The notes under the pieces are model-generated. The model was not told the origin of the DNA. It searched no databases and saw only the letters and a program-made list of their open reading frames with translations. From IMG/VR virus record IMGVR_UViG_2698536454_000007: a stretch of 38,464 nt of DNA; one strand, written 5' to 3'. Below are positions 1 through 34,048 of the stretch, in pieces (within the stretch, counting starts at the first letter, position 1; every line of letters begins with the position of its first letter). The translations under genes and the position numbers were made by a program. This stretch comes from a virus. Taxonomy: Duplodnaviria > Heunggongvirae > Uroviricota > Caudoviricetes.

Positions 1-487
1 TGGCGTTAACTTCTGGCATTTTCATCAACGCTTCAACGATATGTCCGTCGAATGTTGCCATGTCTTCCTGCAACAATTCCTGTGCGCTAATCACCATATC
101 AACGGTGATGTTTTCACATGTGTCGAACTTAACCATGACAGCGTTCTGTACTTCAGGGGCCAGCTTGTCAAAAGTGACGTTCATCGGATCGGATTCAGTC
201 TCAACCGGGACAAAGGAAGCAGACTCCTCATCCCAGCGGTTTTCCTGCATATATTCAGCATCCCAGGAATCGAGGGCAGGGCGGGGTATGCCGGGTTTAT
301 CCTCACAGACAATAAATTTATAAGCGCAGTCCTGAGCTGCAGGGAATTGCTCCAGAAATTGCCAATGAAATTTTGCGCGTGCGCGACGCTCATCACCAGC
401 TTCAATGGCAGTGGCCACCGCAACAGCGCTATCTTCTTTTATGGCCTGTTCATCAGGAATAGCAGCGCAAATAAAGACTTTACTCAT
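1..487 (-). CDS. YdfE-like prophage protein, N-terminal part; the gene runs off the left edge of the window
   Basis: Minus-strand ATG at 487..485 preceded by GAGGTAA Shine-Dalgarno; frame stays open to position 1 (MSKVFICAAIPDEQAIKEDSAVAVATAIEAGDERRARAKFHWQFLEQ...). It is the last gene of the dicB-type operon by position. Product assignment is by synteny and recollection only. Confidence 0.5.
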   Translation of the reverse strand, partial: MSKVFICAAIPDEQAIKEDSAVAVATAIEAGDERRARAKFHWQFLEQFPAAQDCAYKFIVCEDKPGIPRPALDSWDAEYMQENRWDEESASFVPVETESDPMNVTFDKLAPEVQNAVMVKFDTCENITVDMVISAQELLQEDMATFDGHIVEALMKMPEVNA

Positions 488-579
488 TTTGTTTTACCTC
501 ATTACAGATTTAAGGGTGAACAAATCCCTGCCATTGCTGGCATATAAGAATGAAACCGGATGTTTATTACGGAACTGTT

Positions 580-771
580 TTAAAGACCTGCCGGGATTTC
601 GTTATTATCCTGGTGAATAACTTTATCGACCGGGTAACAGTTACCGGGAATTTTCCGTTCGGTTGCTGCAGTCACACACTCCTGCATTGTCCTGTGAACA
701 CTGACTGCAATATCAACTGGCTCTCCGGAAACAAGAAAAACTGTCAGAACAAGTGCAAATGCTGTATTCAT
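580..771 (-). CDS. ydfD: YdfD-like small protein (63 aa) with hydrophobic N-terminus; the Qin homologue is reported to cause lysis
   Basis: ATG at 771..769 overlaps the dicB stop in an ATGA arrangement (translational coupling). Product MNTAFALVLTVFLVSGEPVD..., 63 aa, same length and position as ydfD downstream of dicB in Qin. Confidence 0.6.
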   Translation of the reverse strand: MNTAFALVLTVFLVSGEPVDIAVSVHRTMQECVTAATERKIPGNCYPVDKVIHQDNNEIPAGL

Positions 772-956
772 TGCCAGCATCCTTTTTGTATCGGACGTAA
801 ACGGGCCAGCATTGAAAGAATGCATATTTTATTTAATAGCTCCCGTTCGTGTTTTCTCTTGTTAATGGCATCTTCAGTAAATACAGGGTTACTGATAGTG
901 ACACCAATTTCAAAACAACCTTCAGACGTATTAACGTTTGGTAATAACGTTTCCAT
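768..956 (-). CDS. dicB: Cell division inhibitor DicB (62 aa)
   Basis: ATG at 956 with GAGGA Shine-Dalgarno 7 nt upstream. Product METLLPNVNTSEGCFEIGVTISNPVFTEDAINKRKHERELLNKICILSMLARLRPIQKGCWQ matches my recollection of E. coli DicB, and it sits immediately downstream of DicF. Confidence 0.8.
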   Translation of the reverse strand: METLLPNVNTSEGCFEIGVTISNPVFTEDAINKRKHERELLNKICILSMLARLRPIQKGCWQ

Positions 957-1130
957 TATCGCGTCCTCAACAATGAATTTTGTGATGTGGTGCCTGGTGC
1001 CTCCAGGTGACGTTAACCAGTTAACAATTAACGCCGGATACAGAGAATCCACCCATAACACTGTTTTTGGTTTTAACTGTTCCGCGTGCGCTCAGCCGCA
1101 TTCACCGCATCACAAAATTCACTTTAAAAA

Positions 1131-1183
1131 CGGCGGCAGAGCAGTCACGGAGTAAAACTGATACCGCCAAACGTCACCAGAAA
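1131..1183 (-). ncRNA. dicF: DicF small regulatory RNA (about 53 nt, processed from the dicB operon transcript)
   Basis: Reverse complement of 1131-1183 reads TTTCTGGTGACGTTTGGCGGTATCAGTTTTACTCCGTGACTGCTCTGCCGCCG followed by TTTTT, matching the DicF sequence as I recall it at 52 of 53 positions. It lies between ydfC-like and dicB as in Qin. Ends are approximate. Confidence 0.7.
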
Positions 1184-1523
1184 ATTGATAACAGAGGGCG
1201 TTGCAGCGGGGTTGTCGCTTAAGCGTATGGTCAACCTGACAACCCGGTGTCCTCAACGGGGAAGGAATAACCCCGCCATACTTACCGCCGCGCCATTTCG
1301 CGGAGTGCCACAACCGGAAGCGCACGGTCGACGAAAATTTAACGACAGGCTATCTATGAACCAGCTACCTCGCCGTGCGCTTTCGCGTTATGGTCTGACT
1401 TTTCATGGAAATATCCTTTCAGTAAACTGTCAGTGCCGGATGCTCACCCATGTCCGGCGCACGCACTCCACCTCACCCGTGGAGAACTCCTTAATTACCA
1501 ACCTTAGCTTCGTTGGTTAGCTA

Positions 1524-1742
1524 TTAACGCGGGTATGTAATCATTCTGGCAATGCTTAATGCCGCTGCTTTTTCCAGCCTGGTGATATCCTGCTCCAGAG
1601 CGGACAGATTTTCAGCCTGCTTAGCCCTGGCTTCATTGGCCCATTTCAGATCCTGCGCTGCATTAATTTTCTGGCGCATCCACTCATAAAGTTCATCATC
1701 GGTATAGTCTGGCGAGATGATGACGGGTTCTCGTTTCTGCAT
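1524..1742 (-). CDS. YdfC-like small prophage protein (72 aa)
   Basis: ATG at 1742 with AGGA Shine-Dalgarno 6 nt upstream; third gene of a tightly packed leftward operon; size and order match Qin ydfC. Confidence 0.6.
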   Translation of the reverse strand: MQKREPVIISPDYTDDELYEWMRQKINAAQDLKWANEARAKQAENLSALEQDITRLEKAAALSIARMITYPR

Positions 1743-1771
1743 ACTGATTCCTCGCGGTGCTGCTTCGCTTA

Positions 1772-1900
1772 TCAGCCGTTAGATTTTGCCGAGCTGGAAA
1801 GCGCCTGTTTAAACTCACTGAAGCTGAGAGCTTCTTCGCCTTCGGCAAGGCCTTCGAAGTATTCTTCGTAAGCCTTTTCCATGATTGTGTCGAAATCCAT
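1772..1900 (-). CDS. YdfB-like small acidic protein (42 aa)
   Basis: ATG at 1900, one base after the upstream gene's TGA stop (TGAtATG). Product MDFDTIMEKAYEEYFEGLAEGEEALSFSEFKQALSSSAKSNG. Below the 60-aa cutoff of the ORF track; found by manual translation. Confidence 0.55.
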   Translation of the reverse strand: MDFDTIMEKAYEEYFEGLAEGEEALSFSEFKQALSSSAKSNG

Positions 1901-1901
1901 A

Positions 1902-2057
1902 TCACTCACCTGAGTTTCTTTCCAGCCAGCGACGGGCACCATTTTCGGTTTTAAACGTTTTGCTTCTGGTATACGTCATCGCGGTAAACGTGCCGTCCTG
2001 GTTGGGAAACACGCCGCATACCAGAGATTCGTTGTTGCCAAGATCGATAGTATTCAT
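1902..2057 (-). CDS. YdfA-like small prophage protein (51 aa; the DUF1391 family name is recalled, not verified)
   Basis: ATG at 2057 with GAGG Shine-Dalgarno 5-6 nt upstream. Product MNTIDLGNNESLVCGVFPNQDGTFTAMTYTRSKTFKTENGARRWLERNSGE. First gene downstream of the operator palindrome. Confidence 0.6.
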   Translation of the reverse strand: MNTIDLGNNESLVCGVFPNQDGTFTAMTYTRSKTFKTENGARRWLERNSGE

Positions 2058-2145
2058 GCTGACCTCATTTCCCCTTAACGCCGGGGTAGCGGAACTGTTT
2101 GCTGAGAACACCGTGCGGTGTCTTGGTGGAGATTAATTTAGAATA

Positions 2146-2192
2146 ACCTAACAAATGTGGCAAGTATTTTTGTTAGATTGATCTAACAAAAA
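2146..2192. promoter_or_regulatory. Operator/promoter region of the leftward dicB-type operon: perfect palindrome TTGTTAGAT-TG-ATCTAACAA plus a CCTAACAAA half-site
   Basis: The 9-bp inverted repeat at 2171-2190 is seen directly; a related half-site lies at 2147-2155. It sits between the repressor gene's stop and the first operon gene. Confidence 0.55.
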
Positions 2193-2224
2193 GAGTGAGG
2201 GAATCTAAGTATCTGAAAGGAGTG

Positions 2225-2632
2225 TTATTTTATTGATTTGTTTTTACGTGCTTTAAGCATTTCTTCGAAGAGTTTATTGAAATTCTCTACTCTTGCGCGC
2301 ATTTCAGACAGTAAGGCTTCCTGCTCGGAGGAGGGAAGAGCATCGAATAATTCGATCAATTCTTTGTGGCTGGGAGTTAACTCGGTTTCCACATGAAGTT
2401 CTTGTGCTGGCACTGGTGCCTTGTCTTCGTCACCAAACATTAGCCATGTAGGCGAGCACTTCAGCGCATCAGCTAAAGCAAATAACCGCTTCCCGACCGG
2501 TTGGGTTTCGTCTCTTTCCCATTGTGAAATTGTGACGTGAGCTACCCCAGCGAGGCGTGCAGCTTCTCGTTGTGTTAGGCGTAATTCTTTTCGTCGTGCC
2601 AGAACTCGCTGGCCTAGGGTTCTTGTATCCAT
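2225..2632 (-). CDS. dicA: DicA-like prophage repressor, XRE-family HTH, 135 aa, no LexA-like cleavage domain
   Basis: N-terminal HTH (LTQREAARLAGVAHVTISQWERDETQP) and a C-terminal region ...LFALADALKCSPTWLMFGDEDK...ELIELFDALPSSEQEALLSEMRARVENFNKLFEEMLKAR that closely matches recalled DicA. Divergent from a Cro-like gene. No obvious Shine-Dalgarno upstream. Confidence 0.85.
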   Translation of the reverse strand: MDTRTLGQRVLARRKELRLTQREAARLAGVAHVTISQWERDETQPVGKRLFALADALKCSPTWLMFGDEDKAPVPAQELHVETELTPSHKELIELFDALPSSEQEALLSEMRARVENFNKLFEEMLKARKNKSIK

Positions 2633-2681
2633 AGTTAGGTAATTCTAATTTTTCTTGACTTAGGTATCCCGCGCACATTGC

Positions 2682-2699
2682 TGTTAGGAATATCTAACA
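2682..2699. promoter_or_regulatory. Operator in the divergent dicA/dicC intergenic region (TGTTAGG-AAT-ATCTAACA)
   Basis: Imperfect palindrome sharing the TGTTAG/CTAACA half-sites with the 2171-2190 operator; located between the divergent start codons at 2632 and 2713. Confidence 0.5.
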
Positions 2700-2712
2700 A
2701 GAGGGGGCTTTG

Positions 2713-2940
2713 ATGCTTAAAGTTGACGCAATTACTTTTTTTGGCAGCAAAACAAAACTTGCCAATGCCGCAGGAGTGAAACTGGCAAGTGTTGCTGCAT
2801 GGGGGGAACTGGTTCCTGAAGGTCGCGCGATGCGCCTGCAAGAGGCATCCGGCGGGGAACTTCAGTACGACCCCAAAGTTTATGACGAATATCGTAAGGC
2901 AAAGCGGGCGGGGCGGTTGAACAATGAAAATCACCCCTGA
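2713..2940 (+). CDS. dicC: DicC-like Cro-type regulator (75 aa)
   Basis: ATG at 2713 with GAGGGGG Shine-Dalgarno 5 nt upstream. Product MLKVDAITFFGSKTKLANAAGVKLASVAAWGELVPEGRAMRLQEASGGELQYDPKVYDEYRKAKRAGRLNNENHP resembles recalled DicC. The ORF-track entry at 2710 is a TTG-extended version. Confidence 0.75.
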   Translation: MLKVDAITFFGSKTKLANAAGVKLASVAAWGELVPEGRAMRLQEASGGELQYDPKVYDEYRKAKRAGRLNNENHP

Positions 2941-3445
2941 ACAGGTTTGTGAGGCTCTGGATGCCTGGGTATGCCGACCAGGAATGACACAGGAGCAGGC
3001 GACGATATTAATCACGGAAGCATTCTGGGCTCTGAAAGAACGCCCGAACATCGATGTTCAACGCGTCACGTTTAATGATGGCGAGGTTGATCAACGGGCG
3101 TTGGGCGTTAACCGGGTGAAGATATTCGAACGCTGGAAAGCTATCGACACCAGGGATAAGCGGGAAAAATTCACGGCGCTGATTCCGGCAATTATGGAGG
3201 CTATCCGGATCAGCGATTTCAGGTTGTATTGTGAAATTACTGACGGAAAAAGCATTACGTACATGATCGCCGGGTTAAACAAAGAATATGGTGATGTGGT
3301 GGAGTCCGGGCTGCTTTTTGCGGATCCATCTGTTGTGGAACGTGAGACTGACGAGCTTATAGAAAAAGCTATTGCTTTCAAGCATGCGTATCGTCAGCAA
3401 TACCAACAAAAAGCTGGATGGAATTATGAGCCTTCTTTTTGCTGA
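2924..3445 (+). CDS. YdaT-like early regulatory protein (173 aa); function tentative
   Basis: Second gene of the rightward operon, overlapping the Cro-like stop; position corresponds to ydaT after ydaS in Rac-type prophages. Weak Shine-Dalgarno. Confidence 0.45.
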   Translation: MKITPEQVCEALDAWVCRPGMTQEQATILITEAFWALKERPNIDVQRVTFNDGEVDQRALGVNRVKIFERWKAIDTRDKREKFTALIPAIMEAIRISDFRLYCEITDGKSITYMIAGLNKEYGDVVESGLLFADPSVVERETDELIEKAIAFKHAYRQQYQQKAGWNYEPSFC

Positions 3446-4391
3446 ACGCCCACTGGTTATAAACACACAGCTTGCGATGAAGATTGGCTTAAATGAAGCC
3501 ATTGTGTTGCAGCAGTTGCATTACTGGTTGAGAGATACCAGTTCCGGTATGGAATGTGACGGGGTTCGCTGGATTTATAACACAACAGAACAATGGCTGG
3601 AACAGTTCCCGTTCTGGTCAGAGTCAACGTTAAAACGCGCATTTGCAAGTCTGAAAACGCTGGGGCTTTTGCGTTGCGAAAAGCTCAACAAATCAAAGCG
3701 TGATATGACTAATTTTTACACGATTAATTACGAGAGTGAGCTTTTAGATGGTGGCAAAGTGAGCGAATCCATCAGGTCAAAATGCGCCGCTCCATCGGGT
3801 CAAAATGACACGATGGAAGAGGTCAAAATGGCACGCTCCATTGGTTCAAAACGACCCAATGTCATCGGGTCAAAATGGCCTGATGATCTTACAGAGAATA
3901 CAACAGAGATTACTACAGAGAATAAAAACACTTCTCGTCCGGAAGCTTCGCAACCGGACCCGCAGACGGCTGAACAGGATTTTTTAACCCGACACCCTGA
4001 CGCGGTTGTGTTCAGTGCGAAAAAACGCCAGTGGGGAAGTCAGGAAGATTTGGCGTGCGCACAGTGGATCTGGGGACGAATCGTGAGTCTTTACGAGCAG
4101 GCTGCCAGCGATGATGGCGAGATCACGCGACCGAAAGAACCAAACTGGACCGCATGGGCCAATGACGTGCGCACAATGCGGATGCTGGATGGCAGAAGCC
4201 ACAGACAAATTTGCGAAATGTTTGGTCGGGTACAGCGAGATCCATTCTGGGTAAAAAACATCATGAGCCCGTCAAAGCTTCGCGAAAAATGGGACGACCT
4301 GGTCATCCGCCTGGGGCGTTCACCTGTACAGTGTTGTGTGAATCATATTTCTGAACCGGATACCGAAATTCCGCCTGGTTTCAGGGGATAA
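3426..4391 (+). CDS. Replication initiator (replisome-organizer / O-like protein) with the origin iterons inside the gene
   Basis: N-terminal winged-helix-like region (LVINTQLAMKIGLNEAIVLQQLHYWL...) typical of phage replisome organizers; five direct repeats lie within its linker-coding region. The start is ambiguous (ATG 3426 versus ATG 3384 or TTG 3372). Confidence 0.75.
   Translation: MSLLFAERPLVINTQLAMKIGLNEAIVLQQLHYWLRDTSSGMECDGVRWIYNTTEQWLEQFPFWSESTLKRAFASLKTLGLLRCEKLNKSKRDMTNFYTINYESELLDGGKVSESIRSKCAAPSGQNDTMEEVKMARSIGSKRPNVIGSKWPDDLTENTTEITTENKNTSRPEASQPDPQTAEQDFLTRHPDAVVFSAKKRQWGSQEDLACAQWIWGRIVSLYEQAASDDGEITRPKEPNWTAWANDVRTMRMLDGRSHRQICEMFGRVQRDPFWVKNIMSPSKLREKWDDLVIRLGRSPVQCCVNHISEPDTEIPPGFRG
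3768..3877. repeat. Putative replication origin: five ~23-bp iterons (core GGTCAAAATG) followed by an A-rich repeated segment
   Basis: Direct repeats TCCATCAGGTCAAAATG (3768), TCCATCGGGTCAAAATG (3791), AGAGGTCAAAATG (3818), TCCATTGGTTCAAAACG (3837), GTCATCGGGTCAAAATG (3861), then ACAGAGAATA repeats at 3891-3925. Lambda likewise has its ori iterons inside O. Confidence 0.7.
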
Positions 4392-4431
4392 GTGGTGATT
4401 TTAGGGCATAAAGTAATGTTCAGGAGGACTT

Positions 4432-4839
4432 ATGGCAAAAGTATTTACACAGGAAGAGCGGGAAAAAATTAAAGGACAGGTGGTGGAACTCGTGCGCCAG
4501 AGCGGTCGTGAGACGTTACGGCAACTGGAAGCTAAAACAGGTGCGACAAGATATCTGATGAGCGTTCTTGCCAGAGAGCTGGTTGCCAGTGGTGATGTAT
4601 ATCACTCTGGCTATGGGGTGTTCCCGTCAGAACGGGCTCGTAAGGACTGGCAAAACGCCCGCAAAAAACTCTCGAGGGCAAAGGTGAAGAAACCTGTTGT
4701 GGTTGATCCGGGCCTTATCTGGACATTACCCGACGGAGAAATACGCCGCTACGACAGGCGTATGAACATAATCTGTCGCGAGTGCCGGAAGAGCGAAGTT
4801 ATGCAGCGTGTATTGGCGTTCTATCAGGGATATGCCTAG
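4432..4839 (+). CDS. Hypothetical protein (135 aa), basic, possibly DNA-binding
   Basis: Strong AGGAGG Shine-Dalgarno 6 nt before ATG 4432; base composition like the phage backbone; no family recognised. Confidence 0.6.
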   Translation: MAKVFTQEEREKIKGQVVELVRQSGRETLRQLEAKTGATRYLMSVLARELVASGDVYHSGYGVFPSERARKDWQNARKKLSRAKVKKPVVVDPGLIWTLPDGEIRRYDRRMNIICRECRKSEVMQRVLAFYQGYA

Positions 4840-5207
4840 AATTGTCACAGGTAATGAAATTAAAGAGTATTGGTTCGGATATGAATTGACATTTTCGCGG
4901 CACAGAGCTAAAAATAGCCTACTTGTTGGTTTTGTGTGAAAAGCAGACATTTTGAGGCTCAGGATTTGTTATCAAATAAGACCAATACTTATCTATATTA
5001 ATACACATTAAATACTGTGCAATACATTATTACATTTTATTAGATAAGCGATATTTAGGGAAAAGAAAAGTCATAGAAAACAGGCCGCTATTTGTTGTTG
5101 GATTTTATAGGCTATATCTAGATTATCTTGCCACTGCGGTCTCTGTTTACCTAACAGCTTGGGCTTCTTTGCATGCAAGTTTGTAATAACAAGAGTAATC
5201 AAACGGA

Positions 5208-6239
5208 ATGTCTATTAATCCTAAACTTAAGCGTATCGCGCGACGCTATCCAGCGTTATTCCAATATGAGTCCCCCTATATGGCAAGAAAATTAATAATA
5301 TTCGGCAACGGTCTCGGTATGGCTTTAGATCCTGCTCACTTCTCCTTAGACAGAGCGTTGGAAGAAATTTGGCATCGCCCCAATTTTTTAAAAGATATCC
5401 ACAAGCAACTTATCGAGCGTTGTCTTCAGCGGCAAGGTCCACCAGAAGGAGAACATGAGTTGGATACCCTTCACCAGGCTGTCACATATTGTAAAGCTCT
5501 TGCTCAAATTGGAGAGGGGAACGTGCATTGGCTTACTGAAGATGGACTAAACTTCCCCAAAATTACCGCCACTTATATTCACAAAGTTGCAACCAGGTTG
5601 CATAATTACGATAAAGGTTTGCCACAAAGATTCGAAAATGCGCTTGTGGAGTTTGTAAAGAACACACACTCACATATCGCGACATTAAACTATGACAAAT
5701 TATTATACAATTCATTCATAGATAATGATATATTCAACGGGTATGATGGGGTTTTAGTTGATGGGATGCTAAGCCACGGATTTTCCTCTGCAGCGCTCGA
5801 ACGGAAATACAATCGTAGGTTTGGTTATTATTTGCACTTGCATGGTTCACCACTATTTATTAATCAGCATGAAAATGTTTTAAAACTTTCACGCTCACAA
5901 CTTACTCTTGACATAGATGAACCTAGTGAGCATATAGTGTTAACTCATATAAAAAGAAAACCGTCAGTTATAGCAGCATCTAATGTTCTTTCTACGTACT
6001 GGGATTATTTGCAGTTTGCATTATTTGAATCAGAAGAAATAATATTGTTTGGTTACTCTGGTCTCGATATTCACCTTAACCTGCTTATTCGACCTTACCT
6101 AACCTCTAAGCCTTTAAGAGTAATTGAGTGGAGCGGTGCTGGTGAACAAAACGCTCGTGAGATATATTGGAAAAACCAGTTGAGACGGGAAGTTACTGTA
6201 ATTAGGTTGGATAACATCACTGATTTTATTGATTGGTAG
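5208..6239 (+). CDS. Standalone SIR2-like (sirtuin-fold, predicted NAD-binding) protein, 343 aa; candidate anti-phage effector
   Basis: Motifs in sirtuin order: Gly-rich IIFGNGLGMA (res ~31-40), TLNYDKLL (compare sirtuin TQNIDxL), HLHGS (catalytic-His HG motif), ILFGYSGLD (GYS/GTS motif). The gene and its flanks are visibly AT-rich relative to neighbours. Weak Shine-Dalgarno (ACGGA). Confidence 0.65.
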   Translation: MSINPKLKRIARRYPALFQYESPYMARKLIIFGNGLGMALDPAHFSLDRALEEIWHRPNFLKDIHKQLIERCLQRQGPPEGEHELDTLHQAVTYCKALAQIGEGNVHWLTEDGLNFPKITATYIHKVATRLHNYDKGLPQRFENALVEFVKNTHSHIATLNYDKLLYNSFIDNDIFNGYDGVLVDGMLSHGFSSAALERKYNRRFGYYLHLHGSPLFINQHENVLKLSRSQLTLDIDEPSEHIVLTHIKRKPSVIAASNVLSTYWDYLQFALFESEEIILFGYSGLDIHLNLLIRPYLTSKPLRVIEWSGAGEQNAREIYWKNQLRREVTVIRLDNITDFIDW

Positions 6240-6553
6240 CGCAATGCGAAGTTAAAGAGGCAGCCTCATATTTATCAGAGCTGGTGTACGTCCAATACAG
6301 GAGGTTATCGTGCTGGTTCTCAAATGCGCGCTGGCTATTGCGGCTGTAGTGGCAATTTATTGTCTTGCTATTGTTCTTATGGATCGCCTTTCTGATTGAT
6401 TTTATATTGGCGAGGTGACGGGAGTTAAGTAGAATTGCTGCGGGTGCTTGAGGCTGTCTGCCTCGGGCATGCCACCGTAAGGCAGACAGAGAAAAGCCCC
6501 AGTTAACATTACGCGTCCTGCAAGACGCTTAACATTAATCTGAGGCCCAATCT

Positions 6554-6766
6554 ATGCTTCACAAACGTAGGTTAGCCTCTTACGCGCCGAAAGGCAAGGA
6601 GAAGCAGGCTATGAAGCAGCAAAAGGCGATGTTAATCGCCCTGATCGTCATCTGTTTAACCGTCATAGTGACGGCACTGGTAACGAGGAAAGACCTCTGC
6701 GAGGTACGAATCCGAACCGGCCAGACGGAGGTCGCTGTCTTCACAGCTTACGAACCTGAGGAGTAA
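6554..6766 (+). CDS. mok: Mok-like reading frame, an in-frame N-terminal extension of hok (70 aa)
   Basis: ATG at 6554 with GAGG upstream; same frame and stop as hok, as in chromosomal mok/hok loci. Confidence 0.5.
   Translation: MLHKRRLASYAPKGKEKQAMKQQKAMLIALIVICLTVIVTALVTRKDLCEVRIRTGQTEVAVFTAYEPEE
6611..6766 (+). CDS. hok: Hok/Gef-family type I toxin (51 aa), HokD/RelF-like
   Basis: Product MKQQKAMLIALIVICLTVIVTALVTRKDLCEVRIRTGQTEVAVFTAYEPEE: a single transmembrane helix plus the conserved Hok C-terminal region; AGGAG upstream; fold-back stem (CTGTCTGCC...GGCAGACAG) in the 5' leader at 6457-6490. Confidence 0.85.
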   Translation: MKQQKAMLIALIVICLTVIVTALVTRKDLCEVRIRTGQTEVAVFTAYEPEE

Positions 6767-6834
6767 GAGACCAGGCGGGGGAGAAATCCCTCGCCACCGC
6801 TGATGTGTCAGGCATCCTCAACGCACCCGCACTT

Positions 6835-6866
6835 AACCCGCTTCGGCGGGTTTTTGTTTTTATTTT
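6835..6866 (+). terminator. Rho-independent terminator downstream of hok
   Basis: CCCGC-TTCG-GCGGG hairpin followed by TTTTTGTTTTTATTTT. Confidence 0.7.
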
Positions 6867-6982
6867 CAACGCATTTGAAGTTCTGGACGGTGTCGGAATA
6901 GAATCAAAAATACTTAAGTAGCGCGCAGGGATAAGAGGGATGGTCCCTTAAAGGGGAGAGCTAATTATCCGGAAGGATTCTG

Positions 6983-7234
6983 ATGATGAACATCGAAGAA
7001 CTGCGTAAAATTTTTTGTGAAGATGGCCTCTATGCTGTGTGCGTTGAAAATGGAAATATTGTTAGTCATTACCGCATTGTGTGTTTGCGAAAGAATGGGG
7101 CTGCGTTAATTAATTTTGTGGATGGTCGAGTGACAGACGGATTTATCTTGCGCGAAGGTGAGTTTGTCACTTCATTACAGGCACTGAAAGAGATCGGAAT
7201 AAAAGCTGGCTTTTCTGCTTTTTCAGAAGAATAA
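6983..7234 (+). CDS. Rem-like small prophage protein (83 aa), function unknown
   Basis: GGAAGGA Shine-Dalgarno before ATG 6983; size and position (between hok and the DUF968 gene) match rem of Qin. Confidence 0.55.
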   Translation: MMNIEELRKIFCEDGLYAVCVENGNIVSHYRIVCLRKNGAALINFVDGRVTDGFILREGEFVTSLQALKEIGIKAGFSAFSEE

Positions 7235-7300
7235 ACTCATCTACAATCTTGCGCGGGGCTGAACTCCCGCTGAGTAACACCGTGCCGCCGGAGGAAACCG

Positions 7301-7579
7301 ATGGCACGCAACGCAAAATATTACAATCATGATAATTCGACCGTTCTTGCCCACACGCACGAGCGGTATTCTCACGCATTTAAGTCAGACTGGTACCAGC
7401 ATCCCCCATGCACTGAAGAACAGGCCGAATGGCTCATTCAGTGTTACCGCAGGCGCGGATGCGAGGTTAAAAAAGCCCTTAGCCTCGACTACCGTCACTG
7501 GATAATCTCCGTCGGGCTTCCTTACTCCGAACGCCCACCGCGTCTGTCCCGCACATTCCAGCAACGCATCTGGAGGTAA
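7301..7579 (+). CDS. Hypothetical protein (92 aa)
   Basis: GGAGGAAA Shine-Dalgarno 5 nt before ATG 7301; stop abuts the GTG start of the next gene. Confidence 0.55.
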   Translation: MARNAKYYNHDNSTVLAHTHERYSHAFKSDWYQHPPCTEEQAEWLIQCYRRRGCEVKKALSLDYRHWIISVGLPYSERPPRLSRTFQQRIWR

Positions 7580-7580
7580 C

Positions 7581-8630
7581 GTGCGGGTATTACTTCGACC
7601 TGTTCTGGTACCGGAACTCGGGCTGGTGGTCCTTAAGCCCGGTCGCGAATCACTGCCGGTTTTTCATTGCGGCAGGGTGCTGGTGGAGCCGGAACCGAAA
7701 AGCATGCGCGGTCTGCCGTCCGGAGTCGTCCCTGCCGTTCGCCAGCCGCTGGCGGAGGATAAATCATTACTGCCATTTTTCAGCGATGAGCGTGTGATTC
7801 GTGCTGCTGGCGGCGCTGGCGCACTGTCTGACTGGCTCCTGCGTCATGTCAAATCCTGCCAGTGGCCTCATGGTGACTACCATCACAGTGAAACCGTCAT
7901 ACATCGTTATGGTACCGGCGCAATGGTGTTGTGCTGGCACTGCGACAACCAGCTGCGCGACCAGACCTCCGAATCACTCGGGCAACTTGCTCACCAAAAC
8001 CTGTCTGCATGGATGATTGACGTCATACGCCATGCAATGAATGGCTCGCAGGAACGGGAATTATCGCTGGCTGAATTATCCTGGTGGGCGATCCGCAATC
8101 AGGTGGCGGACGCGCTACCGGAAGCGGTATTACGTCGTTCGCTGGGGTTGCGTGCGGAAAAAATCCGCTCAATGTACCGTGAAAGCGACATCGTACCGGG
8201 AGAGCAGACCGCCACCAGCATACTGAAACAGCGCACAAAAAATCTTGCGCCGCTGCCTCACGCCCACCAGCAACAGAACCCGCCACAGGAAAAGACGGTG
8301 GTCAGCATTGCTGTTGATCCGGAGTCTCCGGAATCTTTAATGAAGCGACCTAAACGTCGCCGTTGGGTAAATGAGAAATATACGCGCTGGGTAAAGACAC
8401 AGCCGTGTGCGTGTTGTGGTAAGCCAGCCGACGATCCCCATCACCTGATTGGTCATGGTCAGGGCGGAATAGGGACAAAAGCCCACGATATTTTCACGCT
8501 ACCGTTGTGCCGGGAGCATCACAACGAACTTCATGCTGATCCGCTGGCATTTGAAGAAAAGCATGGTTCCCAGATTGATTTAATTTTTCGTTTTCTTGAT
8601 CGCGCCTTTGCAACCGGCGTGCTCGGGTAA
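7581..8630 (+). CDS. DUF968-family protein (YdfU-like, 349 aa) with a C-terminal Cys/His-rich HNH-like motif
   Basis: GTG start with GGAGG 5 nt upstream; C-terminal CACCGKPADDPHHLIGHGQGG...LCREHHNELH; size and synteny match ydfU. Confidence 0.75.
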   Translation: MRVLLRPVLVPELGLVVLKPGRESLPVFHCGRVLVEPEPKSMRGLPSGVVPAVRQPLAEDKSLLPFFSDERVIRAAGGAGALSDWLLRHVKSCQWPHGDYHHSETVIHRYGTGAMVLCWHCDNQLRDQTSESLGQLAHQNLSAWMIDVIRHAMNGSQERELSLAELSWWAIRNQVADALPEAVLRRSLGLRAEKIRSMYRESDIVPGEQTATSILKQRTKNLAPLPHAHQQQNPPQEKTVVSIAVDPESPESLMKRPKRRRWVNEKYTRWVKTQPCACCGKPADDPHHLIGHGQGGIGTKAHDIFTLPLCREHHNELHADPLAFEEKHGSQIDLIFRFLDRAFATGVLG

Positions 8631-8642
8631 AAGAGGTTACTG

Positions 8643-9002
8643 ATGCGTATAGAGTTTGTTTTGCCTTACCCGCCGACGGTGAACACCTACTGGCGACGTC
8701 GTGGCAGCACATATTTTGTGTCAAAAGCCGGTGAGCGTTATCGCCGGGATGTGGCACTTATTGTTCGCCAGCAGCGGCTGAAATTAAACCTGTCCGGAAG
8801 GCTGGCGATAAAGATTATTGCAGAGCCACCGGATAAGCGCCGCCGCGACCTGGACAATATCCTGAAGGCACCACTGGATGCGCTTACGCATGCCGGACTA
8901 CTTATAGACGACGAGCAGTTTGATGAAATCAATATTGTGCGCGGTCAGCTCGTTTCTGGTGGGCGGCTGGGCGTGAAGATTTACAAAATTGAAAGTGAGT
9001 GA
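8643..9002 (+). CDS. rusA: Holliday junction resolvase RusA
   Basis: 119 aa; motifs PPTVNTYW and RRRDLDNILKAPLDALT are characteristic of RusA; AAGAGG Shine-Dalgarno. Confidence 0.85.
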   Translation: MRIEFVLPYPPTVNTYWRRRGSTYFVSKAGERYRRDVALIVRQQRLKLNLSGRLAIKIIAEPPDKRRRDLDNILKAPLDALTHAGLLIDDEQFDEINIVRGQLVSGGRLGVKIYKIESE

Positions 9003-11236: not shown

Positions 11237-11312
11237 GGCCCTTTAGCTCAGTGGTGAGAGCGAGCGACTCATAATCGCCAGGTCGCTGGTTCAAATCCAG
11301 CAAGGGCCACCA
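11237..11312 (+). tRNA. ileZ: tRNA with CAU anticodon (Met or lysidine-modified Ile2; ileZ-like)
   Basis: Cloverleaf: acceptor GGCCCTT/AAGGGCC, D-arm AGCTCAGTGGTGAGAGC, anticodon loop CTCATAA, T-arm GGTTCAAATCC, 3' CCA. Confidence 0.85.
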
Positions 11313-11319
11313 TCACATA

Positions 11320-11396
11320 CCGCTATTAGCTCATCAGGAAAGAGCGCCAGCCTTCGAAGCTGGCTGCGCGGGGTTCAAGTCCCCGATGGCGGTCCA
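11320..11396 (+). tRNA. argN: tRNA-Arg (anticodon UCG)
   Basis: Acceptor CCGCTAT/ATGGCGG, anticodon stem-loop GCCAG-CCTTCGAA-CTGGC, T-arm GGTTCAAGTCC, CCA end. Confidence 0.85.
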
Positions 11397-11409
11397 TTAT
11401 CTGCATCAT

Positions 11410-11486
11410 GCGTTGTTAGCTCAGCCGGACAGAGCAATTGCCTTCTAAGCAATCGGTCACTGGTTCGAATCCAGTACAACGCGCCA
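11410..11486 (+). tRNA. argO: tRNA-Arg (anticodon UCU, reads AGA)
   Basis: Acceptor GCGTTGT/ACAACGC, anticodon loop CCTTCTAAG, T-arm GGTTCGAATCC, CCA end. Confidence 0.85.
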
Positions 11487-11529: not shown

Positions 11530-11974
11530 GTCTCACAATTCAGACGGTTGACAGTTGTCTGTTTTGCGGGGAGTTTGTTAAAAGAAACTGGCATGGTGAA
11601 TCCCCCTGTGCGGAGGGGCAATCAGCGAGTAGGTATATGGGATAATCGCGGATTCAGGTGCTGGTACTGAATTCACCGGGAGGCACCCGGCACCATGCAA
11701 TGGCACATAGCGCCACTCTCCAGCCCCTCTCCGGAGGGGCTTTCTTATGGACAAAAAAAGCCCGCGCTGGGAGACGCGGGCGGCAAGGAATAAACAACAA
11801 AACGTGAAGTAATATTTCAGCTGGCGAATAATATCCGACAGTAATCACTCTGCGCAATAGCGCGGCCTTTTTCGTATTGCGGGCTGTTGTCTCTCTTCTG
11901 CCATTGTCCTGTAACTTCCGGACTTCAGCCCGCTCCTCATTTTACTCACAATATTATCCCGGCCGGGAGGATTC

Positions 11975-14894: not shown

Positions 14895-15428
14895 ATGAAC
14901 GCAAAAATCAGATACGGCCTGTCGGCTGCCGTTCTGGCGCTGATTGGTGCAGGGACGTCTGCGCCTGAAATCCTCGACCAGTTTCTTGACGAAAAAGAAG
15001 GTAACCACACCACGGCATACCGTGATGGTGCGGGGATCTGGACCATCTGCCGCGGTGCCACCCGAGTGGATGGTAAGCCTGTCGTCCCGGGTATGAAGTT
15101 ATCGAAGGAAAAGTGCGACCAGGTTAACGCCATTGAACGTGATAAGGCGCTGGAGTGGGTGGAGCGCAATATTAAAGTACCGCTGACCGAACCCCAGAAG
15201 GCGGGTATCGCGTCATTTTGTCCTTATAACATTGGCCCCGGTAAGTGTTTCCCGTCTACGTTTTACAGACGGATTAATGCAGGTGATCGAAAAGGTGCCT
15301 GCGAAGCGATTCGCTGGTGGATTAAGGACGGTGGCAGAGACTGCCGTATCCGCTCAAATAATTGCTACGGTCAGGTATCCCGGCGAGACCAGGAAAGTGC
15401 ACTGGCGTGCTGGGGAATTGACAGATAA
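14895..15428 (+). CDS. R: SAR endolysin (T4-lysozyme-like, GH24), RrrD/RrrQ-type
   Basis: N-terminal signal-anchor-release segment YGLSAAVLALIGAGTSA followed by the catalytic region EGNHTTAYRDGAGIWTICRG; the sequence matches recalled DLP12 RrrD almost throughout. Confidence 0.9.
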   Translation: MNAKIRYGLSAAVLALIGAGTSAPEILDQFLDEKEGNHTTAYRDGAGIWTICRGATRVDGKPVVPGMKLSKEKCDQVNAIERDKALEWVERNIKVPLTEPQKAGIASFCPYNIGPGKCFPSTFYRRINAGDRKGACEAIRWWIKDGGRDCRIRSNNCYGQVSRRDQESALACWGIDR

Positions 15429-15917: not shown

Positions 15918-16385
15918 ATGAACCGTGTTCTGTGTGTGGTGATTATTGTCCTGCTGGTAGCCTGTGGTGTGCTTAGTCTGGGGCTGAATCATTACCGCGA
16001 TAACGCCATTACCTACAAAGCGCAACGCGATAAAAAAGCCAGTGAGCTGAAGCTGGCGAACGTGACAATTACTGATATGCAGGTACGCCAGCGTGATGTC
16101 GCTGCACTTGATGCCAGATACTCGAGGGAATTAGCCGATGCGAGAGCTGAAAATGAAACTCTGCGTGCTGATGTTGCCGCTGGTCGTAAGCGCCTGCGCA
16201 TCAACGCCAACTGTCCAGGCTCCTTGCGTAAAGCCCCCATCACCTCCGGCGTGGATAATGCAACCGGTCCCCGACTGGCAGAAGCCGCTGAACGGGATTA
16301 TTTCATCCTCAGAGAACGGCTGATGGCAATGCAGAAGCAACTGGAAGGAGCACAGGAATATATCCGTACCCAGTGTATACCGTGA
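15918..16385 (+). CDS. Rz: Inner-membrane spanin Rz
   Basis: N-terminal transmembrane segment followed by coiled-coil-like sequence; GGGGGA Shine-Dalgarno; contains an embedded +1-frame Rz1. Confidence 0.85.
16138..16323 (+). CDS. Rz1: Outer-membrane lipoprotein spanin Rz1, embedded in Rz
   Basis: Lipobox LVVSAC followed by a proline-rich region [19 protein letters not shown]; resembles recalled RzoD. Confidence 0.75.
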
Positions 16386-16851
16386 TGTTTTGTTATGAAG
16401 GTGTTACTGGTAACGTTAAGGTAATTTAACAAAGAGTCAGTTCCGGACTTTATAGTGTGCTCAGTTCATGGACAAAAACGATTTCTGTGATAAATATTTT
16501 GAATATTATTTACAGGTAAATGGAGTGGGGCGCATGGATAGAAATATTACAATAGAGTATGAAGTATATGCCCGTATTGTATGGGCAGAGAAGGCAAAAA
16601 CACGGTAATTCCGTGTGTTGCCATGATACCTGATTGGCAGAATAGTTGTTTGGTTTTGAGTATATAGTCAGCGTTTTTTGTTCAGTAATTGCCCCCTCAA
16701 AAAATAATAAAATAAGGTGATTATTTTTGTTTATTATTTAGTTTTTTTTTGTGTGTTATTTTATTGTTTTTGCGTGGTTTGTTTTTTATTGTTATTTCAT
16801 TAAGGGAAGGTAAATTCAGGATGGCAGTCTGTAGATAATCGGAGGTCACTT

Positions 16852-17166
16852 ATGCTACATGATCACGTGGCAGAATGTCTGGAGAAAAAAGGACTGTACC
16901 GGAGAGCAGCTGAACGATGGGCAAAAGTGATGGTACAGCTAAGTGATGACCAGAAAAGAAAAGTGGCGGCACAGAAACGAGCAGAGTGTTTGCGTAAGGC
17001 GCGCCGGACTCCGGTTTCACCGGTGAACCTGACCGAAATAAAACAAGCGGTCAACAGACTACATTCTGAGTTGGGAATGGGATTTGAAGAGCGGCGGGTA
17101 TTCCGACGATATAAAGGGACAGGAGAACAGAATACGTCCGGAAACGCGCGGTCAAAAAAATGCTAA
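16852..17166 (+). CDS. PerC-family (Pch-like) transcriptional activator, 104 aa
   Basis: GGAGG Shine-Dalgarno 6 nt before ATG; N-terminal motif ECLEKKGLYRRAAERWAKVM fits the PerC family signature as recalled; preceded by a long AT/GT-rich tract. Confidence 0.55.
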   Translation: MLHDHVAECLEKKGLYRRAAERWAKVMVQLSDDQKRKVAAQKRAECLRKARRTPVSPVNLTEIKQAVNRLHSELGMGFEERRVFRRYKGTGEQNTSGNARSKKC

Positions 17167-17202: not shown

Positions 17203-17232
17203 AAAAAGCGACTTTAGTGGTCGCTTTTTGTG
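17203..17232. terminator. Bidirectional terminator between the convergent PerC-like and RHH-like genes
   Basis: GCGAC-TTTAGTG-GTCGC hairpin with A-run upstream and T-run downstream. Confidence 0.6.
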
Positions 17233-17247
17233 TCATATATAAGTCGT

Positions 17248-17472
17248 TTAAGTAAACCTGTCTGAACAGGTGCTCTGGTCGTGTTTGTCTTTGTTGGGTA
17301 CAAATTGAGCATGTTTTTCATTAATTAATCTTCTTCTGCAGGCTTCAATAACCCACGCTGAAAAATTACCTGAACCTTTCTGATCAAGAGCGATGTTAAT
17401 TTGTTCAATCATTTGGTTAGGAAAGCGGATGTTGCGGGTTGTTTTTCTGCGGGTTCTGTTCTTCGTTGACAT
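17248..17472 (-). CDS. Small basic protein, possibly ribbon-helix-helix (YlcI-like position before cos/Nu1)
   Basis: Minus-strand 74-aa ORF (MSTKNRTRRKTTRNIRFPNQMIEQINIALDQKG...); weak Shine-Dalgarno; assignment by synteny with DLP12 ylcI. Confidence 0.45.
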   Translation of the reverse strand: MSTKNRTRRKTTRNIRFPNQMIEQINIALDQKGSGNFSAWVIEACRRRLINEKHAQFVPNKDKHDQSTCSDRFT

Positions 17473-17659
17473 GAGGTTGCCCCGTATTCAGTGTCGCTGA
17501 TTTGTATTGTCTGAAGTTGTTTTTACGTTAAGTTGATGCAGATCAATTAATACGATACCTGCGTCATAATTGATTATTTGACGTGGTTTGATGGCGTAGA
17601 TGCACGTTGTGACATATAGATGATAATTATTATCATTTTGCGGGTCCTTTCCGGCGATC

Positions 17660-17830
17660 CGACAGGTTACGGGGCGGCGACCTCGCGGGTTTTCGCTATT
17701 TATGAAAATTTTCCGGGATCCATGTCCGGTTTCTCTTCAAGTTAACTATATGAAAAATATAAAAACAGGTCTTCTGTGAACCGGACATGAACAAAAAACA
17801 GACATGTAAACCGGACATGACCGGTTTTGT
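17660..17830. other. cos: cos site: cosN with the 12-nt cohesive end GGGCGGCGACCT (17672-17683) and a cosB-like array of terminase-binding repeats
   Basis: ...GACAGGTTACG|GGGCGGCGACCT|CGCGGGTTTTCGCTATTTATGAAAATTTTCCGG matches recalled lambda cos termini. Downstream lie CATGTCCGGT (inverted, 17721), an A/T-rich segment, then AACCGGACATGA twice (17779 and 17809). Confidence 0.8.
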
Positions 17831-17866: not shown

Positions 17867-18376
17867 GTGGCTACGCAGACTGAAGTTGCCAGGCATTTAA
17901 GTCTGACCGATCGCCAGCTTCGCAGATTGCAGAAATTGCCGGGTGCCCCGATATCGAATAAGCGAGGGCAACTGGATCTGGATGCCTGGCGCGATTTTTA
18001 CATATCGTATCTGAGGAGAAGTAAAAACGATGTGCCTGATGGCGATAGCGAAGACGACTATGAGGAGAAATTGCTTATTGCCAGATGGGAACTGACAGCA
18101 GAACAGGCTGTTACACAGCAGTTAAAAAATGAGGTGTCAAAAGGAAAACTTATTGACACCGGGTTCTGTATTTTTGCCCTCAGTAAGCTGGCAATGGCGT
18201 TATCCAGTACGCTTGATTCCATCCCTTTATCCATGCAGCGACAGTTTCCTGATTTAACACCGCGCCATCTTGACCATCTGAAAACCCTTATTGCTAAGGG
18301 GGCAAATCAGTGTGCGCGGGCAGGGGATAAATTACCGGATTTACTCGATGAATATATCAGAGCAACAACTGAATAA
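17867..18376 (+). CDS. nu1: Terminase small subunit (Nu1-like)
   Basis: GTG start with GAGG 6 nt upstream; the C-terminal half (...FCIFALSKLAMALSSTLDSIPLSMQRQFPDL...LLDEYI) resembles lambda Nu1, while the N-terminal HTH region differs. Confidence 0.8.
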   Translation: MATQTEVARHLSLTDRQLRRLQKLPGAPISNKRGQLDLDAWRDFYISYLRRSKNDVPDGDSEDDYEEKLLIARWELTAEQAVTQQLKNEVSKGKLIDTGFCIFALSKLAMALSSTLDSIPLSMQRQFPDLTPRHLDHLKTLIAKGANQCARAGDKLPDLLDEYIRATTE

Positions 18377-33520: not shown

Positions 33521-34048
33521 TTATTGAATGATGCCGCAGGCCATTCTCGCACCACCACCGCCCAGGGGCTCCGGATGGTCATGATGGTTATCACCGCCAG
33601 CATGAAGCATGAGAGAACGCCCTTTAATCTCTTTTAATGAGTTCAGTCTCGGGGCCAGGACCGGGTAGTTCGCTTTTCCGTCATGCGTCACGAACAGCGC
33701 AGGGAGGTCGCCCAGGTGTCCATCCGGAGACCAGGGGCCAAGATGTTTGCCGGTGTTTTTCGGGTCAAAGTGACCGCCAGCCGATAATGCTGCGACCGGT
33801 TTTCCGTCTTTCAGTGCCGGGGCGCAATTTCCTTTTTCGTGCACATGAAAACCATGAATGCCTTCAGACAGAGAGTGAAGGGCTGGTGTGAACAGCAGAC
33901 CGTAGGGGGTCTCCTGAATGGTTATTTTTCCAATGCTGACTTCTTTTCCGTCAGCACTGACAAGGTTCATTGGGACTTCCTGTTCTGCTGCGTATCCGCA
34001 TGATGCTGCTGTCAGCATGGCAATGGCAGCAATGATTTTACATTTCAT
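33521..34048 (-). CDS. sodC: Periplasmic Cu,Zn superoxide dismutase (SodC), prophage moron
   Basis: Signal peptide [20 protein letters not shown]; copper/zinc ligand motifs [36 protein letters not shown]; GAGGG Shine-Dalgarno before ATG 34048. The ORF-track entry is a long artefactual N-terminal extension. Confidence 0.85.

What the first reader, a model, noticed from the sequence alone, without database searches (positions are those of the whole stretch)
16386..17166. PerC-family (Pch-like) regulator moron next to cos, preceded by an unusual AT/GT-rich low-complexity tract
The 104-aa protein has the N-terminal LE-KG-YRRAA-RW-VM pattern I associate with PerC/Pch activators, which in pathogenic E. 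coli switch on the LEE through ler. It follows about 460 bp of AT-rich DNA that includes a T/G-rich low-complexity run (about 16670-16800), typical of H-NS-silenced horizontally acquired regulatory regions. A prophage-borne regulator of host virulence genes would be a host-phage crosstalk element.
Basis: partly seen in the sequence, partly recalled or inferred. Interest (0 to 1): 0.55.

Follow-up and report, generated by a model that had tools for sequence, protein, structure and literature searches.

The report
Known prophage virulence regulator gene pchA
This is an ordinary copy of pchA, a well-studied prophage-borne PerC-family regulator that switches on the LEE virulence island of pathogenic E. 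coli, together with its usual T-rich upstream control region.

Summary

- **Identity.** The 104-aa ORF (16852-17166, +) matches Pfam PerC over its full length (E 3.8e-44). It is 100% identical to PchA (ECs_1091) of E. coli O157:H7 Sakai. The whole locus, upstream tract included, is 99% identical to the Sakai pchA locus.
- **Frequency.** It occurs in 673 of 5426 complete E. coli genomes, with a median of 3 copies.
- **Position.** It sits between the lysis gene Rz and cos, as a self-contained unit: AT-rich upstream DNA, the ORF, then a bidirectional terminator. cosN lies about 0.5 kb further on, with one small gene between.
- **The T-rich tract.** The stretch at about 16699-16798 has 17% GC and 60% T. 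It is the most extreme composition in the 38-kb window. It is the normal pchA upstream region. It also marks the one segment where pchA-type and pchB-type loci diverge, by about 33%.
- **Untested.** H-NS silencing of this tract is plausible but could not be tested here.
- **Published mechanism.** Pch remodels H-NS complexes at the LEE1 promoter. The window also reproduces in silico the published translational control of pchA by the sRNA DicF, and it carries its own dicF copy.

Novelty: none. Interest: low.

The parts
15918..16385 (+). Rz spanin gene, with Rz1 embedded at 16138-16323. It is the last lysis gene and the left boundary of the pch unit.
   Evidence: Pfam Phage_lysis PF03245, E 2e-46. 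ORF list. RefSeq annotates it as 'lysis protein' in a 99-100% identical prophage.
16386..16851 (+). 466-bp AT-rich intergenic region upstream of pch (33% G+C). It presumably holds the pch promoter and regulatory sites.
   Evidence: Composition. 99% identical to the Sakai pchA upstream region. No CDS annotated here by RefSeq.
16468..16608 (+). 46-aa ORF of doubtful coding status inside the intergenic region. A hairpin at 16600-16616 overlaps its stop codon.
   Evidence: ORF list. No Pfam or NCBIfam hit. Matches phrog_2157, function unknown. Not annotated in RefSeq. At the three positions where it varies among the compared copies, the changes are amino-acid changing by my reading of the codons. 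Hairpin.
16699..16798 (+). T-rich, G-containing low-complexity tract directly upstream of pch. It is the compositional extreme of the window and the segment that differs between pchA-type and pchB-type loci.
   Evidence: 17% G+C and 60% T, the lowest and highest in the window. Lowest-entropy stretch. Weak 22-nt repeat. About 33% divergence from Sakai pchB is confined to 16693-16810, with under 1% in the flanks. A diverged T-rich version is kept upstream of a 79%-identical plasmid paralogue.
16742..16750 (+). Poly-T run, T9 in this window and length-polymorphic between copies.
   Evidence: T8 in Sakai pchA and in 9 other loci, T7 in L011.
16841..16845 (+). Shine-Dalgarno sequence GGAGG of pch.
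   Evidence: Read directly from the sequence. Predicted to be base-paired within the mRNA.
16852..17166 (+). pch gene (pchA allele): 104-aa PerC-family transcriptional activator.
   Evidence: Pfam PerC, E 3.8e-44. 100% identical to Sakai PchA ECs_1091 and one residue (V6L) from PchB. RefSeq WP_001303878.1, 'PerC family transcriptional regulator'. A source name for the exact sequence is 'PchABC family transcriptional regulator'.
16930..16957 (+). Predicted DicF pairing site inside the pch coding region. It overlaps the predicted anti-Shine-Dalgarno element at 16940-16951.
   Evidence: Partition-function folding pairs 16841-16852 with 16940-16951 at p about 0.5-0.6. DicF nt 1-26 against 16930-16957 gives -25.6 kcal/mol; 0 of 100 dinucleotide shuffles do as well. 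There is a perfect 8-mer, UUUCUGGU against ACCAGAAA. This agrees with the mechanism as described in a review of Melson and Kendall 2019 (PMC7769764).
17203..17229 (.). Bidirectional intrinsic terminator (AAAAAGCGAC-N7-GTCGCTTTTT) shared by pch and the convergent ylcI/ynfO-like gene.
   Evidence: Perfect 10-nt inverted repeat I10. The hairpin is present in both the MFE and centroid folds.
17248..17472 (-). 74-aa YlcI/YnfO-family (DUF3950) gene between pch and cos.
   Evidence: Pfam DUF3950, E 7.6e-20. NCBIfam YlcI_YnfO_N.
17672..17683 (+). cosN, the 12-nt lambda-type cohesive-end sequence GGGCGGCGACCT.
   Evidence: Single exact match to the first 12 bases of lambda. Window 17325-17716 is 93.9% identical to the lambda right-end/left-end junction. 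Nu1 lies at 17867-18376.
1131..1182 (-). dicF sRNA gene on the same prophage. DicF is the published translational activator of pchA.
   Evidence: Rfam RF00039, 72.5 bits, full length. Same arrangement in Sakai Sp4.

Best explanation
The locus is a standard copy of pchA, a group-1 pch gene of the PerC family. It is carried as a self-contained moron in the late region of a non-Stx lambdoid prophage, between the lysis gene Rz and cos. The unit consists of an AT-rich upstream region ending in a T-rich tract, a strong Shine-Dalgarno sequence, the 104-aa ORF, and a bidirectional intrinsic terminator.

Shown experimentally by others for the identical protein: Pch binds the LEE1 (ler) promoter region, reduces H-NS/StpA occupancy there, and so raises Ler and the whole LEE type III secretion regulon.

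Published for pchA and reproduced here only in silico: the mRNA hides its ribosome-binding site by pairing it with an anti-SD element inside the coding region. The prophage sRNA DicF, a copy of which lies 15.7 kb upstream in this window, pairs with that element and releases translation.

Inferred, not shown: the T-rich tract is the promoter-proximal regulatory DNA of pch. It probably acts as an AT-rich UP-like and nucleoid-protein or regulator binding region. Because it is the one segment that differs sharply between pchA-type and pchB-type loci, it probably carries the paralogue-specific transcriptional control.
For: - Family: Pfam PerC full-length hit, E 3.8e-44.
- Identity: 100% to Sakai PchA. 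The 961-bp locus is 99% identical to the Sakai pchA locus. RefSeq and source names are PerC/PchABC family.
- Frequency: 673 of 5426 complete genomes, median 3 copies.
- Conserved placement: the order Rz, about 465 bp, pch, ylcI-like gene holds in most of the ten other loci examined (in some an IS element lies directly downstream of pch). One of them has a different terminase type, so the unit travels with the lysis end rather than with cos.
- Terminator and cos.
- Function and mechanism from the literature: PMC4764244, PMC6265319, PMC13012123 for LrhA-Pch-Ler.
- DicF and anti-SD: reviews PMC7769764, PMC7873438 and PMC9438474, with matching predictions in this window.
- Tract: compositional extreme; allelic divergence confined to it; retained in diverged form in a 79%-identical paralogue that lacks Rz upstream.
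Against: - Nothing contradicts the identification.
- No transcription start site could be retrieved. Whether the tract lies upstream of the promoter or is partly transcribed is therefore unknown.
- The consensus promoter scan found no strong sigma-70 match immediately upstream of pch. The best '+' candidates, at 16469-16498 and 16618-16646, score 9 of 12, and hits are no more frequent than in shuffles.
- H-NS binding to the tract is not documented in the papers I could read.
- T-runs are not clearly phased.
- Whether the host of this window carries LEE is unknown, so the in-vivo target cannot be confirmed for this particular copy.
- The single-sequence structure model was too poor to use (pLDDT 51).
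Confidence: 0.95

Rival explanations
1. The T-rich tract is mainly an H-NS nucleation site that keeps pch silent until counter-silencing signals arrive. It complements the identification of the gene rather than competing with it.
For: - 17% G+C against a 52% background, the lowest in the window.
Against: - No locus-specific H-NS data for pch promoters were found.
- There is no clear 10-11-nt phasing of T-tracts that would indicate strong intrinsic curvature.
- The tract is short, about 100-130 bp.
Confidence: 0.4
2. The tract is conventional promoter architecture: an UP-like AT-rich element plus binding sites for specific activators such as LrhA. It would have no special silencing role. Its divergence between pchA and pchB would set paralogue-specific responses.
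For: - Divergence between the pchA-type and pchB-type loci is confined to 16693-16810, while the flanks are over 99% identical.
- The literature reports LrhA-dependent, differential regulation of PchA and PchB (title of Honda et al. 2009, cited in PMC13012123).
- T-richness is retained while the sequence drifts in a 79%-identical paralogue.
Against: - No binding-site data or transcription start site were available to me.
- Promoter-like matches are weak.
Confidence: 0.35
3. The tract is transcribed as a long U-rich 5' leader from a promoter further upstream, for example the TTGCCA-17-AATAGT match at 16618-16646. It would then act post-transcriptionally, through Hfq or S1 binding or through effects on mRNA stability.
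For: - A promoter-like site at 16618-16646.
- pchA is known to be under Hfq/DicF post-transcriptional control.
Against: - The promoter match is only 9 of 12, and such matches are no more frequent here than in shuffles.
- The published control element is in the coding region, not in a long leader.
Confidence: 0.15
4. In the host of this particular window the gene has no LEE target. It is then either silent cargo or acts on other promoters, as reported for PerC in EPEC (per its title, metabolism and surface antigens) and for PchE (curli, flagella).
For: - The window does not show whether LEE is present.
- Identical copies occur in isolates from chicken, dog and other sources.
- PerC and PchE have non-LEE targets (PMC5293775 and PMC7369912; PMC6265319).
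Against: - The top hits include known LEE-positive serogroups, O103:H2 and O157.
- Group-1 pch genes are the ones required for ler expression.
Confidence: 0.1

Closest known systems
PchA (ECs_1091, prophage Sp4) of E. coli O157:H7 Sakai
   Same: - Protein 100% identical.
- Upstream region, ORF and terminator 99% identical over 961 bp.
- Follows Rz, as in this window.
- dicF lies on the same prophage.
   Different: - A handful of SNPs, and T9 instead of T8 in the poly-T run.
- In Sakai Sp4 the lysis-pch block is inverted by IS629/ISEc8-associated rearrangement. In this window the prophage late region is collinear and intact.
PchB (ECs_2182, prophage Sp11) of O157 Sakai
   Same: - 103 of 104 residues identical (V6L).
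- Same position between Rz and the terminase genes.
- Flanking DNA over 99% identical.
   Different: The T-rich tract at 16693-16810 is about 33% diverged, although still T-rich. This window carries the pchA-type tract.
PerC of EPEC E2348/69 (pEAF/pMAR2 perABC operon)
   Same: - Same Pfam family.
- 47% identity over residues 2-88.
- Both activate LEE1/ler (PMC4764244 discussion; PMC6265319).
   Different: - PerC is plasmid-borne.
- By name it belongs to the perABC operon (my knowledge, not checked here), rather than standing as a separate prophage moron with its own T-rich upstream tract.
- PerC is shorter; the tblastn match ends at residue 88 of 104.
Lambda bor region (morons between Rz and cos)
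   Same: Same insertion site in the lambdoid late region. In lambda, bor and two small ORFs lie between Rz and cos. The cos-proximal DNA is homologous from window 17325 onward.
   Different: - The cargo is unrelated: bor encodes an outer-membrane lipoprotein and lies on the opposite strand.
- pch is on the late-transcript strand, so it could also be read through from pR' on induction. That is an inference.

Membership tests
PerC family (Pfam PF06069) | Significant full-length match to the family profile, above the curated cut-off | tested here: met
   149.3 bits against a cut-off of 22.6, E 3.8e-44, residues 1-89 on model positions 1-89 of 90. PHROG 'transcriptional activator' families also hit.
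PerC family (Pfam PF06069) | Detectable homology to the prototype PerC of EPEC pEAF | tested here: met
   tblastn against NC_011603.1 (E2348/69 plasmid): 47.1% identity over residues 2-88, E 1e-17.
PerC family (Pfam PF06069) | Activates the LEE1/ler promoter | not testable with these tools
   Shown in the literature for the identical PchA protein (PMC4764244; PMC6265319 citing Iyoda and Watanabe 2004 and Porter 2005). Not assayed for this copy.
Group-1 Pch (PchA/B/C) of EHEC/EPEC prophages | 104-aa protein nearly identical to PchA/B/C | tested here: met
   100% identical to PchA and 99% to PchB.
Group-1 Pch (PchA/B/C) of EHEC/EPEC prophages | Located in a lambdoid prophage late region, downstream of Rz/Rz1 and upstream of the packaging genes | tested here: met
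   Window gene order. Same order at Sakai pchB and downstream of Rz at pchA, and Rz upstream of pch in 10 other loci.
Group-1 Pch (PchA/B/C) of EHEC/EPEC prophages | Self-inhibitory SD:anti-SD structure relieved by DicF | tested here: inconclusive
   - Predicted pairing of 16841-16852 with 16940-16951, p about 0.5-0.6.
- DicF 5' end pairs with 16930-16957 better than with all 100 shuffles.
- This is consistent with review descriptions.
- The primary paper could not be read, so the exact published sites were not compared.
Phage moron (autonomous gene cassette in a late operon) | Own terminator, and own promoter region of deviant composition, inserted between genes that are neighbours or differently filled in related phages | tested here: met
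   - Terminator at 17203-17229.
- Upstream DNA at 33% G+C against 52%.
- Lambda has other cargo (bor) at the same site.
- The cassette keeps its T-rich upstream region in a plasmid paralogue without Rz.
- Promoter activity itself is taken from the literature, not shown here.
H-NS-silenced xenogeneic promoter | G+C far below the genome average | tested here: met
   17% G+C over 100 bp, the lowest in the window.
H-NS-silenced xenogeneic promoter | H-NS occupancy and derepression in hns mutants | not testable with these tools
   No locus-specific data in the text or supplements of PMC4764244.
H-NS-silenced xenogeneic promoter | Phased A/T tracts (intrinsic curvature) | tested here: inconclusive
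   T-runs of at least 4 lie at irregular spacings of about 20, 14.5, 8.5 and 15.5 nt. There is only a weak autocorrelation peak at 22 nt (0.21).

The most novel reading that the evidence does not exclude
The T-rich tract is an exchangeable regulatory cassette. Its allelic form (pchA-type or pchB-type, about 33% diverged within otherwise identical DNA) and its slippage-prone poly-T run (T7, T8 or T9 between copies) would tune or phase-vary how much each pch copy contributes. A lysogen with several such prophages, each also bringing its own dicF, would then carry a graded, prophage-autonomous sRNA-activator circuit for LEE.
Probability: 0.07. Interest if true: 0.35.

Novelty: already known. Interest (0 to 1): 0.08.

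Why it matters
Pch proteins are master upstream activators of the LEE type III secretion island in EHEC and EPEC. They are a textbook case of prophage-to-host regulatory crosstalk and of counter-silencing of H-NS.

Finding pchA in this window says that the prophage is of the Sp4/Sp11/Sp14-like kind that contributes to virulence regulation. It adds no new biology. The gene, its protein sequence, its position, its upstream region and its DicF-dependent translational control are all already described.

The only mildly useful extras are two. First, pchA/pchB divergence is mapped precisely onto the T-rich tract. Second, dicF and pch travel on the same prophage.

Tried and rejected
- **Primary DicF paper.** Reading Melson and Kendall 2019 failed; it is not held. 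I relied on reviews instead.
- **Transcription start site.** Searches for a mapped pchA start site or promoter led nowhere. The phrase 'pchA promoter' returned one irrelevant paper. Combined-term searches returned nothing usable. The Sakai dRNA-seq paper has no supplement held.
- **H-NS data.** ChIP tables for pch loci are not in the held supplements.
- **Structure.** Single-sequence AlphaFold gave pLDDT 51, so no fold search was run. There is no PDB relative by sequence. I chose not to spend a large homologue search on a better model, because it could not change the verdict.
- **Whole-sRNA duplex prediction.** Allowing long loops gave meaningless 'hits'. I replaced it with a 5'-region scan with shuffles.
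- **Tandem repeat or curved-DNA reading.** Only weakly supported and not adopted.
- **The 46-aa ORF at 16468-16608.** Considered as a real gene but judged doubtful: no curated family, not annotated, and amino-acid changes (my reading of the codons) at all three variable positions. It does have a PHROG cluster.
- **HnrS.** I considered whether the prophage sRNA HnrS (PMC13502914) could lie in the intergenic region. It is reported from other prophages (Sp9, Sp10, Sp12), so this was dropped.
- **Rfam.** No family was found inside 16386-17166 at gathering thresholds.

Full report
**What is at the coordinates.**
- The interval 16386-17166 consists of a 466-bp non-coding gap followed by a 315-bp ORF (16852-17166, + strand, 104 aa).
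- A GGAGG Shine-Dalgarno lies at 16841-16845, 6 nt before the ATG.
- The gap has 33% G+C against 52.3% for the whole window.
- Its last part is extreme. 16699-16798 has 17% G+C and 60% T, both the lowest G+C and the highest T of any 100-bp stretch in the 38,464 bases.
- The core 16720-16800 is 70% T and 15% G.
- The lowest-entropy 131-bp stretch of the window is 16673-16803.
- Internally the tract shows only a weak repeat of about 22 nt and no convincing helical phasing of T-runs.

**Surroundings.**
- Upstream is the lysis cassette: lysozyme at 14895-15428, and Rz at 15918-16385 with Rz1 embedded.
- Downstream of the ORF is a perfect 10-nt inverted repeat flanked by A5 and T5 (17203-17229). 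It folds as a hairpin and can terminate transcription in both directions.
- Next comes a convergent 74-aa DUF3950 / YlcI-YnfO gene (17248-17472, minus strand).
- Then cos. The 12-nt lambda cohesive end GGGCGGCGACCT occurs once, at 17672-17683. Window 17325-17716 is 93.9% identical to the joined ends of lambda.
- Nu1 (17867-18376) and the large terminase subunit follow.
- 'Next to cos' thus means about 0.5 kb upstream with one small gene between.
- In lambda itself the same slot, between Rz and cos, is filled by bor and two small ORFs.
- The late region of the window (12159-38464) is 99.1% identical to a prophage of E. coli strain 602687. The early region is mosaic at 90-93%.

**Identity of the gene.**
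- The protein matches Pfam PerC (PF06069) end to end: E 3.8e-44, 149 bits against a cut-off of 22.6.
- It also matches PHROG families labelled transcriptional activator.
- It is 100% identical to PchA (ECs_1091) of E. coli O157:H7 Sakai and differs from Sakai PchB by one residue, V6L.
- The 961-bp locus, including the whole upstream region and the terminator, is 99% identical to the Sakai pchA locus.
- RefSeq calls the exact protein WP_001303878.1, 'PerC family transcriptional regulator'. Another source name is 'PchABC family transcriptional regulator'.
- The 915-bp locus is present in 673 of 5426 complete E. coli genomes, usually in about three copies. The exact protein is indexed in 15,398 blocks of the assembly collection.
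- The prototype PerC of EPEC E2348/69 is 47% identical over residues 2-88.
The gene is not merely Pch-like; it is pchA.

**How it works, and what is shown against inferred.**

Shown by others for this exact protein:
- Group-1 pch genes (pchA/B/C) are required for full ler, espA and adherence phenotypes (PMC6265319 summarising Iyoda and Watanabe 2004).
- PchA binds the LEE1 promoter region, lowers H-NS/StpA occupancy there in vivo and in vitro, and is needed alongside Ler for full LEE expression. It is described as an anti-silencing regulator (PMC4764244).
- Upstream control through LrhA, NtrC and others is documented (PMC13012123).

Published for pchA and reproduced here only by prediction:
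- The mRNA sequesters its ribosome-binding site with an anti-SD element in the coding region. The sRNA DicF pairs with that element to permit translation at low oxygen (reviews).
- In this window, partition-function folding pairs 16841-16852 (SD to start codon) with 16940-16951, at p about 0.5-0.6 in three transcript models.
- The 5' 26 nt of DicF pair with 16930-16957 at -25.6 kcal/mol, better than all 100 dinucleotide shuffles (mean -19.7, sd 2.1). The pairing includes a perfect 8-mer, UUUCUGGU against ACCAGAAA.
- The window carries its own full-length dicF at 1131-1182 on the minus strand. Sakai Sp4 has the same arrangement next to pchA.
- I could not read the primary paper, so agreement with the published nucleotides is unverified.

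**The T-rich tract.**
- It is the normal pchA upstream sequence, not a peculiarity of this window. It is 99% conserved in Sakai and in ten further loci that encode the identical protein.
- One of those loci (L011) sits in a phage with a different terminase type. The unit therefore travels with the lysis end of the late region.
- Comparing pchA-type and pchB-type loci is informative. The flanks 16386-16690 and 16810-17166 differ by under 1%, but 16693-16810 differs at about 38 positions, roughly 33%, while remaining T-rich.
- A plasmid-borne paralogue that is 79% identical in protein and has no Rz upstream still carries a diverged, T-rich stretch of about 130 bp plus a similar SD region.
- So the tract belongs to the pch cassette. 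Its composition is conserved more than its sequence. It is also the segment in which the paralogues differ, which fits the published differential regulation of PchA and PchB (title of Honda et al. 2009, cited).
- No start site was retrievable. Consensus promoter matches are weak and no more frequent than in shuffles. No locus-specific H-NS data were found.
- I rate H-NS involvement at about 0.4.
- One small polymorphism: the poly-T run at 16742-16750 is T9 here, T8 in nine other loci and Sakai pchA, and T7 in one locus.

**Comparison with the known, and verdict.**
- Every testable defining feature of the PerC family and of group-1 Pch is met.
- The functional features, LEE1 activation and H-NS displacement, are established in the literature for the identical protein but were not testable for this copy.
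- The window does not reveal whether its host has LEE.
- The moron description is apt: own terminator, own upstream region of deviant composition, and a slot that other lambdoid phages fill with other cargo.
- Nothing here departs from what is known. I rate it 'already known', with interest about 0.08.
- The most novel reading not excluded is that tract allele and poly-T length tune or phase-vary each copy's output within a prophage-autonomous dicF-pch circuit. I give that about 7% probability, with moderate interest if true.

Noticed in passing
window 1131-1182 (-): A full-length DicF sRNA gene (Rfam RF00039, 72.5 bits) lies on the same prophage as pch. Sakai Sp4 also carries dicF together with pchA. 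DicF is the published translational activator of pchA, so regulator and target travel together.
   Followed up: yes
window 16693-16810, compared with L019 (Sakai pchB) and L002 (Sakai pchA): Divergence between pchA-type and pchB-type loci is confined to the T-rich tract: about 33% there against under 1% in the flanking DNA. This is a sharp mosaic boundary that coincides with the low-complexity DNA.
   Followed up: partly
window 16742-16750: The poly-T run varies in length between otherwise near-identical copies: T9 here, T8 in most, T7 in one. This may be simple slippage. Any effect on expression is unknown.
   Followed up: partly
window 16468-16608 (+) and hairpin 16600-16616: A 46-aa ORF in the Rz-pch gap matches phrog_2157 (function unknown) and is called as a gene in one assembly. 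RefSeq does not annotate it, and the changes at the three positions where it varies among copies are amino-acid changing by my reading of the codons. A 6-bp hairpin overlaps its stop codon. On the minus strand the hairpin looks terminator-like, downstream of a weak minus-strand promoter match at 16733-16704.
   Followed up: partly
window 6442-6616 (+), 11237-11483 (+), 11562-11752 (+): Other RNA genes in the prophage: sok antitoxin (with hokD), three tRNA genes (annotated as Ile, Arg, Arg in a related prophage, where they follow the Q antiterminator gene), and the sRNA STnc100.
   Followed up: no
window 33521-34048 (-): An intact sodC (Cu/Zn superoxide dismutase family) gene sits among the tail genes on the opposite strand. 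It is another classic moron of these prophages.
   Followed up: no
window 16852-17166, protein residues 7-47: A weak, sub-threshold NCBIfam hit to the ANR (AraC negative regulator) family: E 0.046, 13.6 bits against a cut-off of 32. The PerC family has no solved structure by sequence search, and the single-sequence AlphaFold model was poor (pLDDT 51, four predicted helices).
   Followed up: partly
window 243-8971 compared with L016: The early/immunity region is only 90-93% identical to the prophage of strain 602687, and in patches. In that related prophage this region is annotated with dicA/dicC, hokD and Q. The late region (12159-38464) is 99.1% identical. This is typical lambdoid mosaicism.
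   Followed up: no
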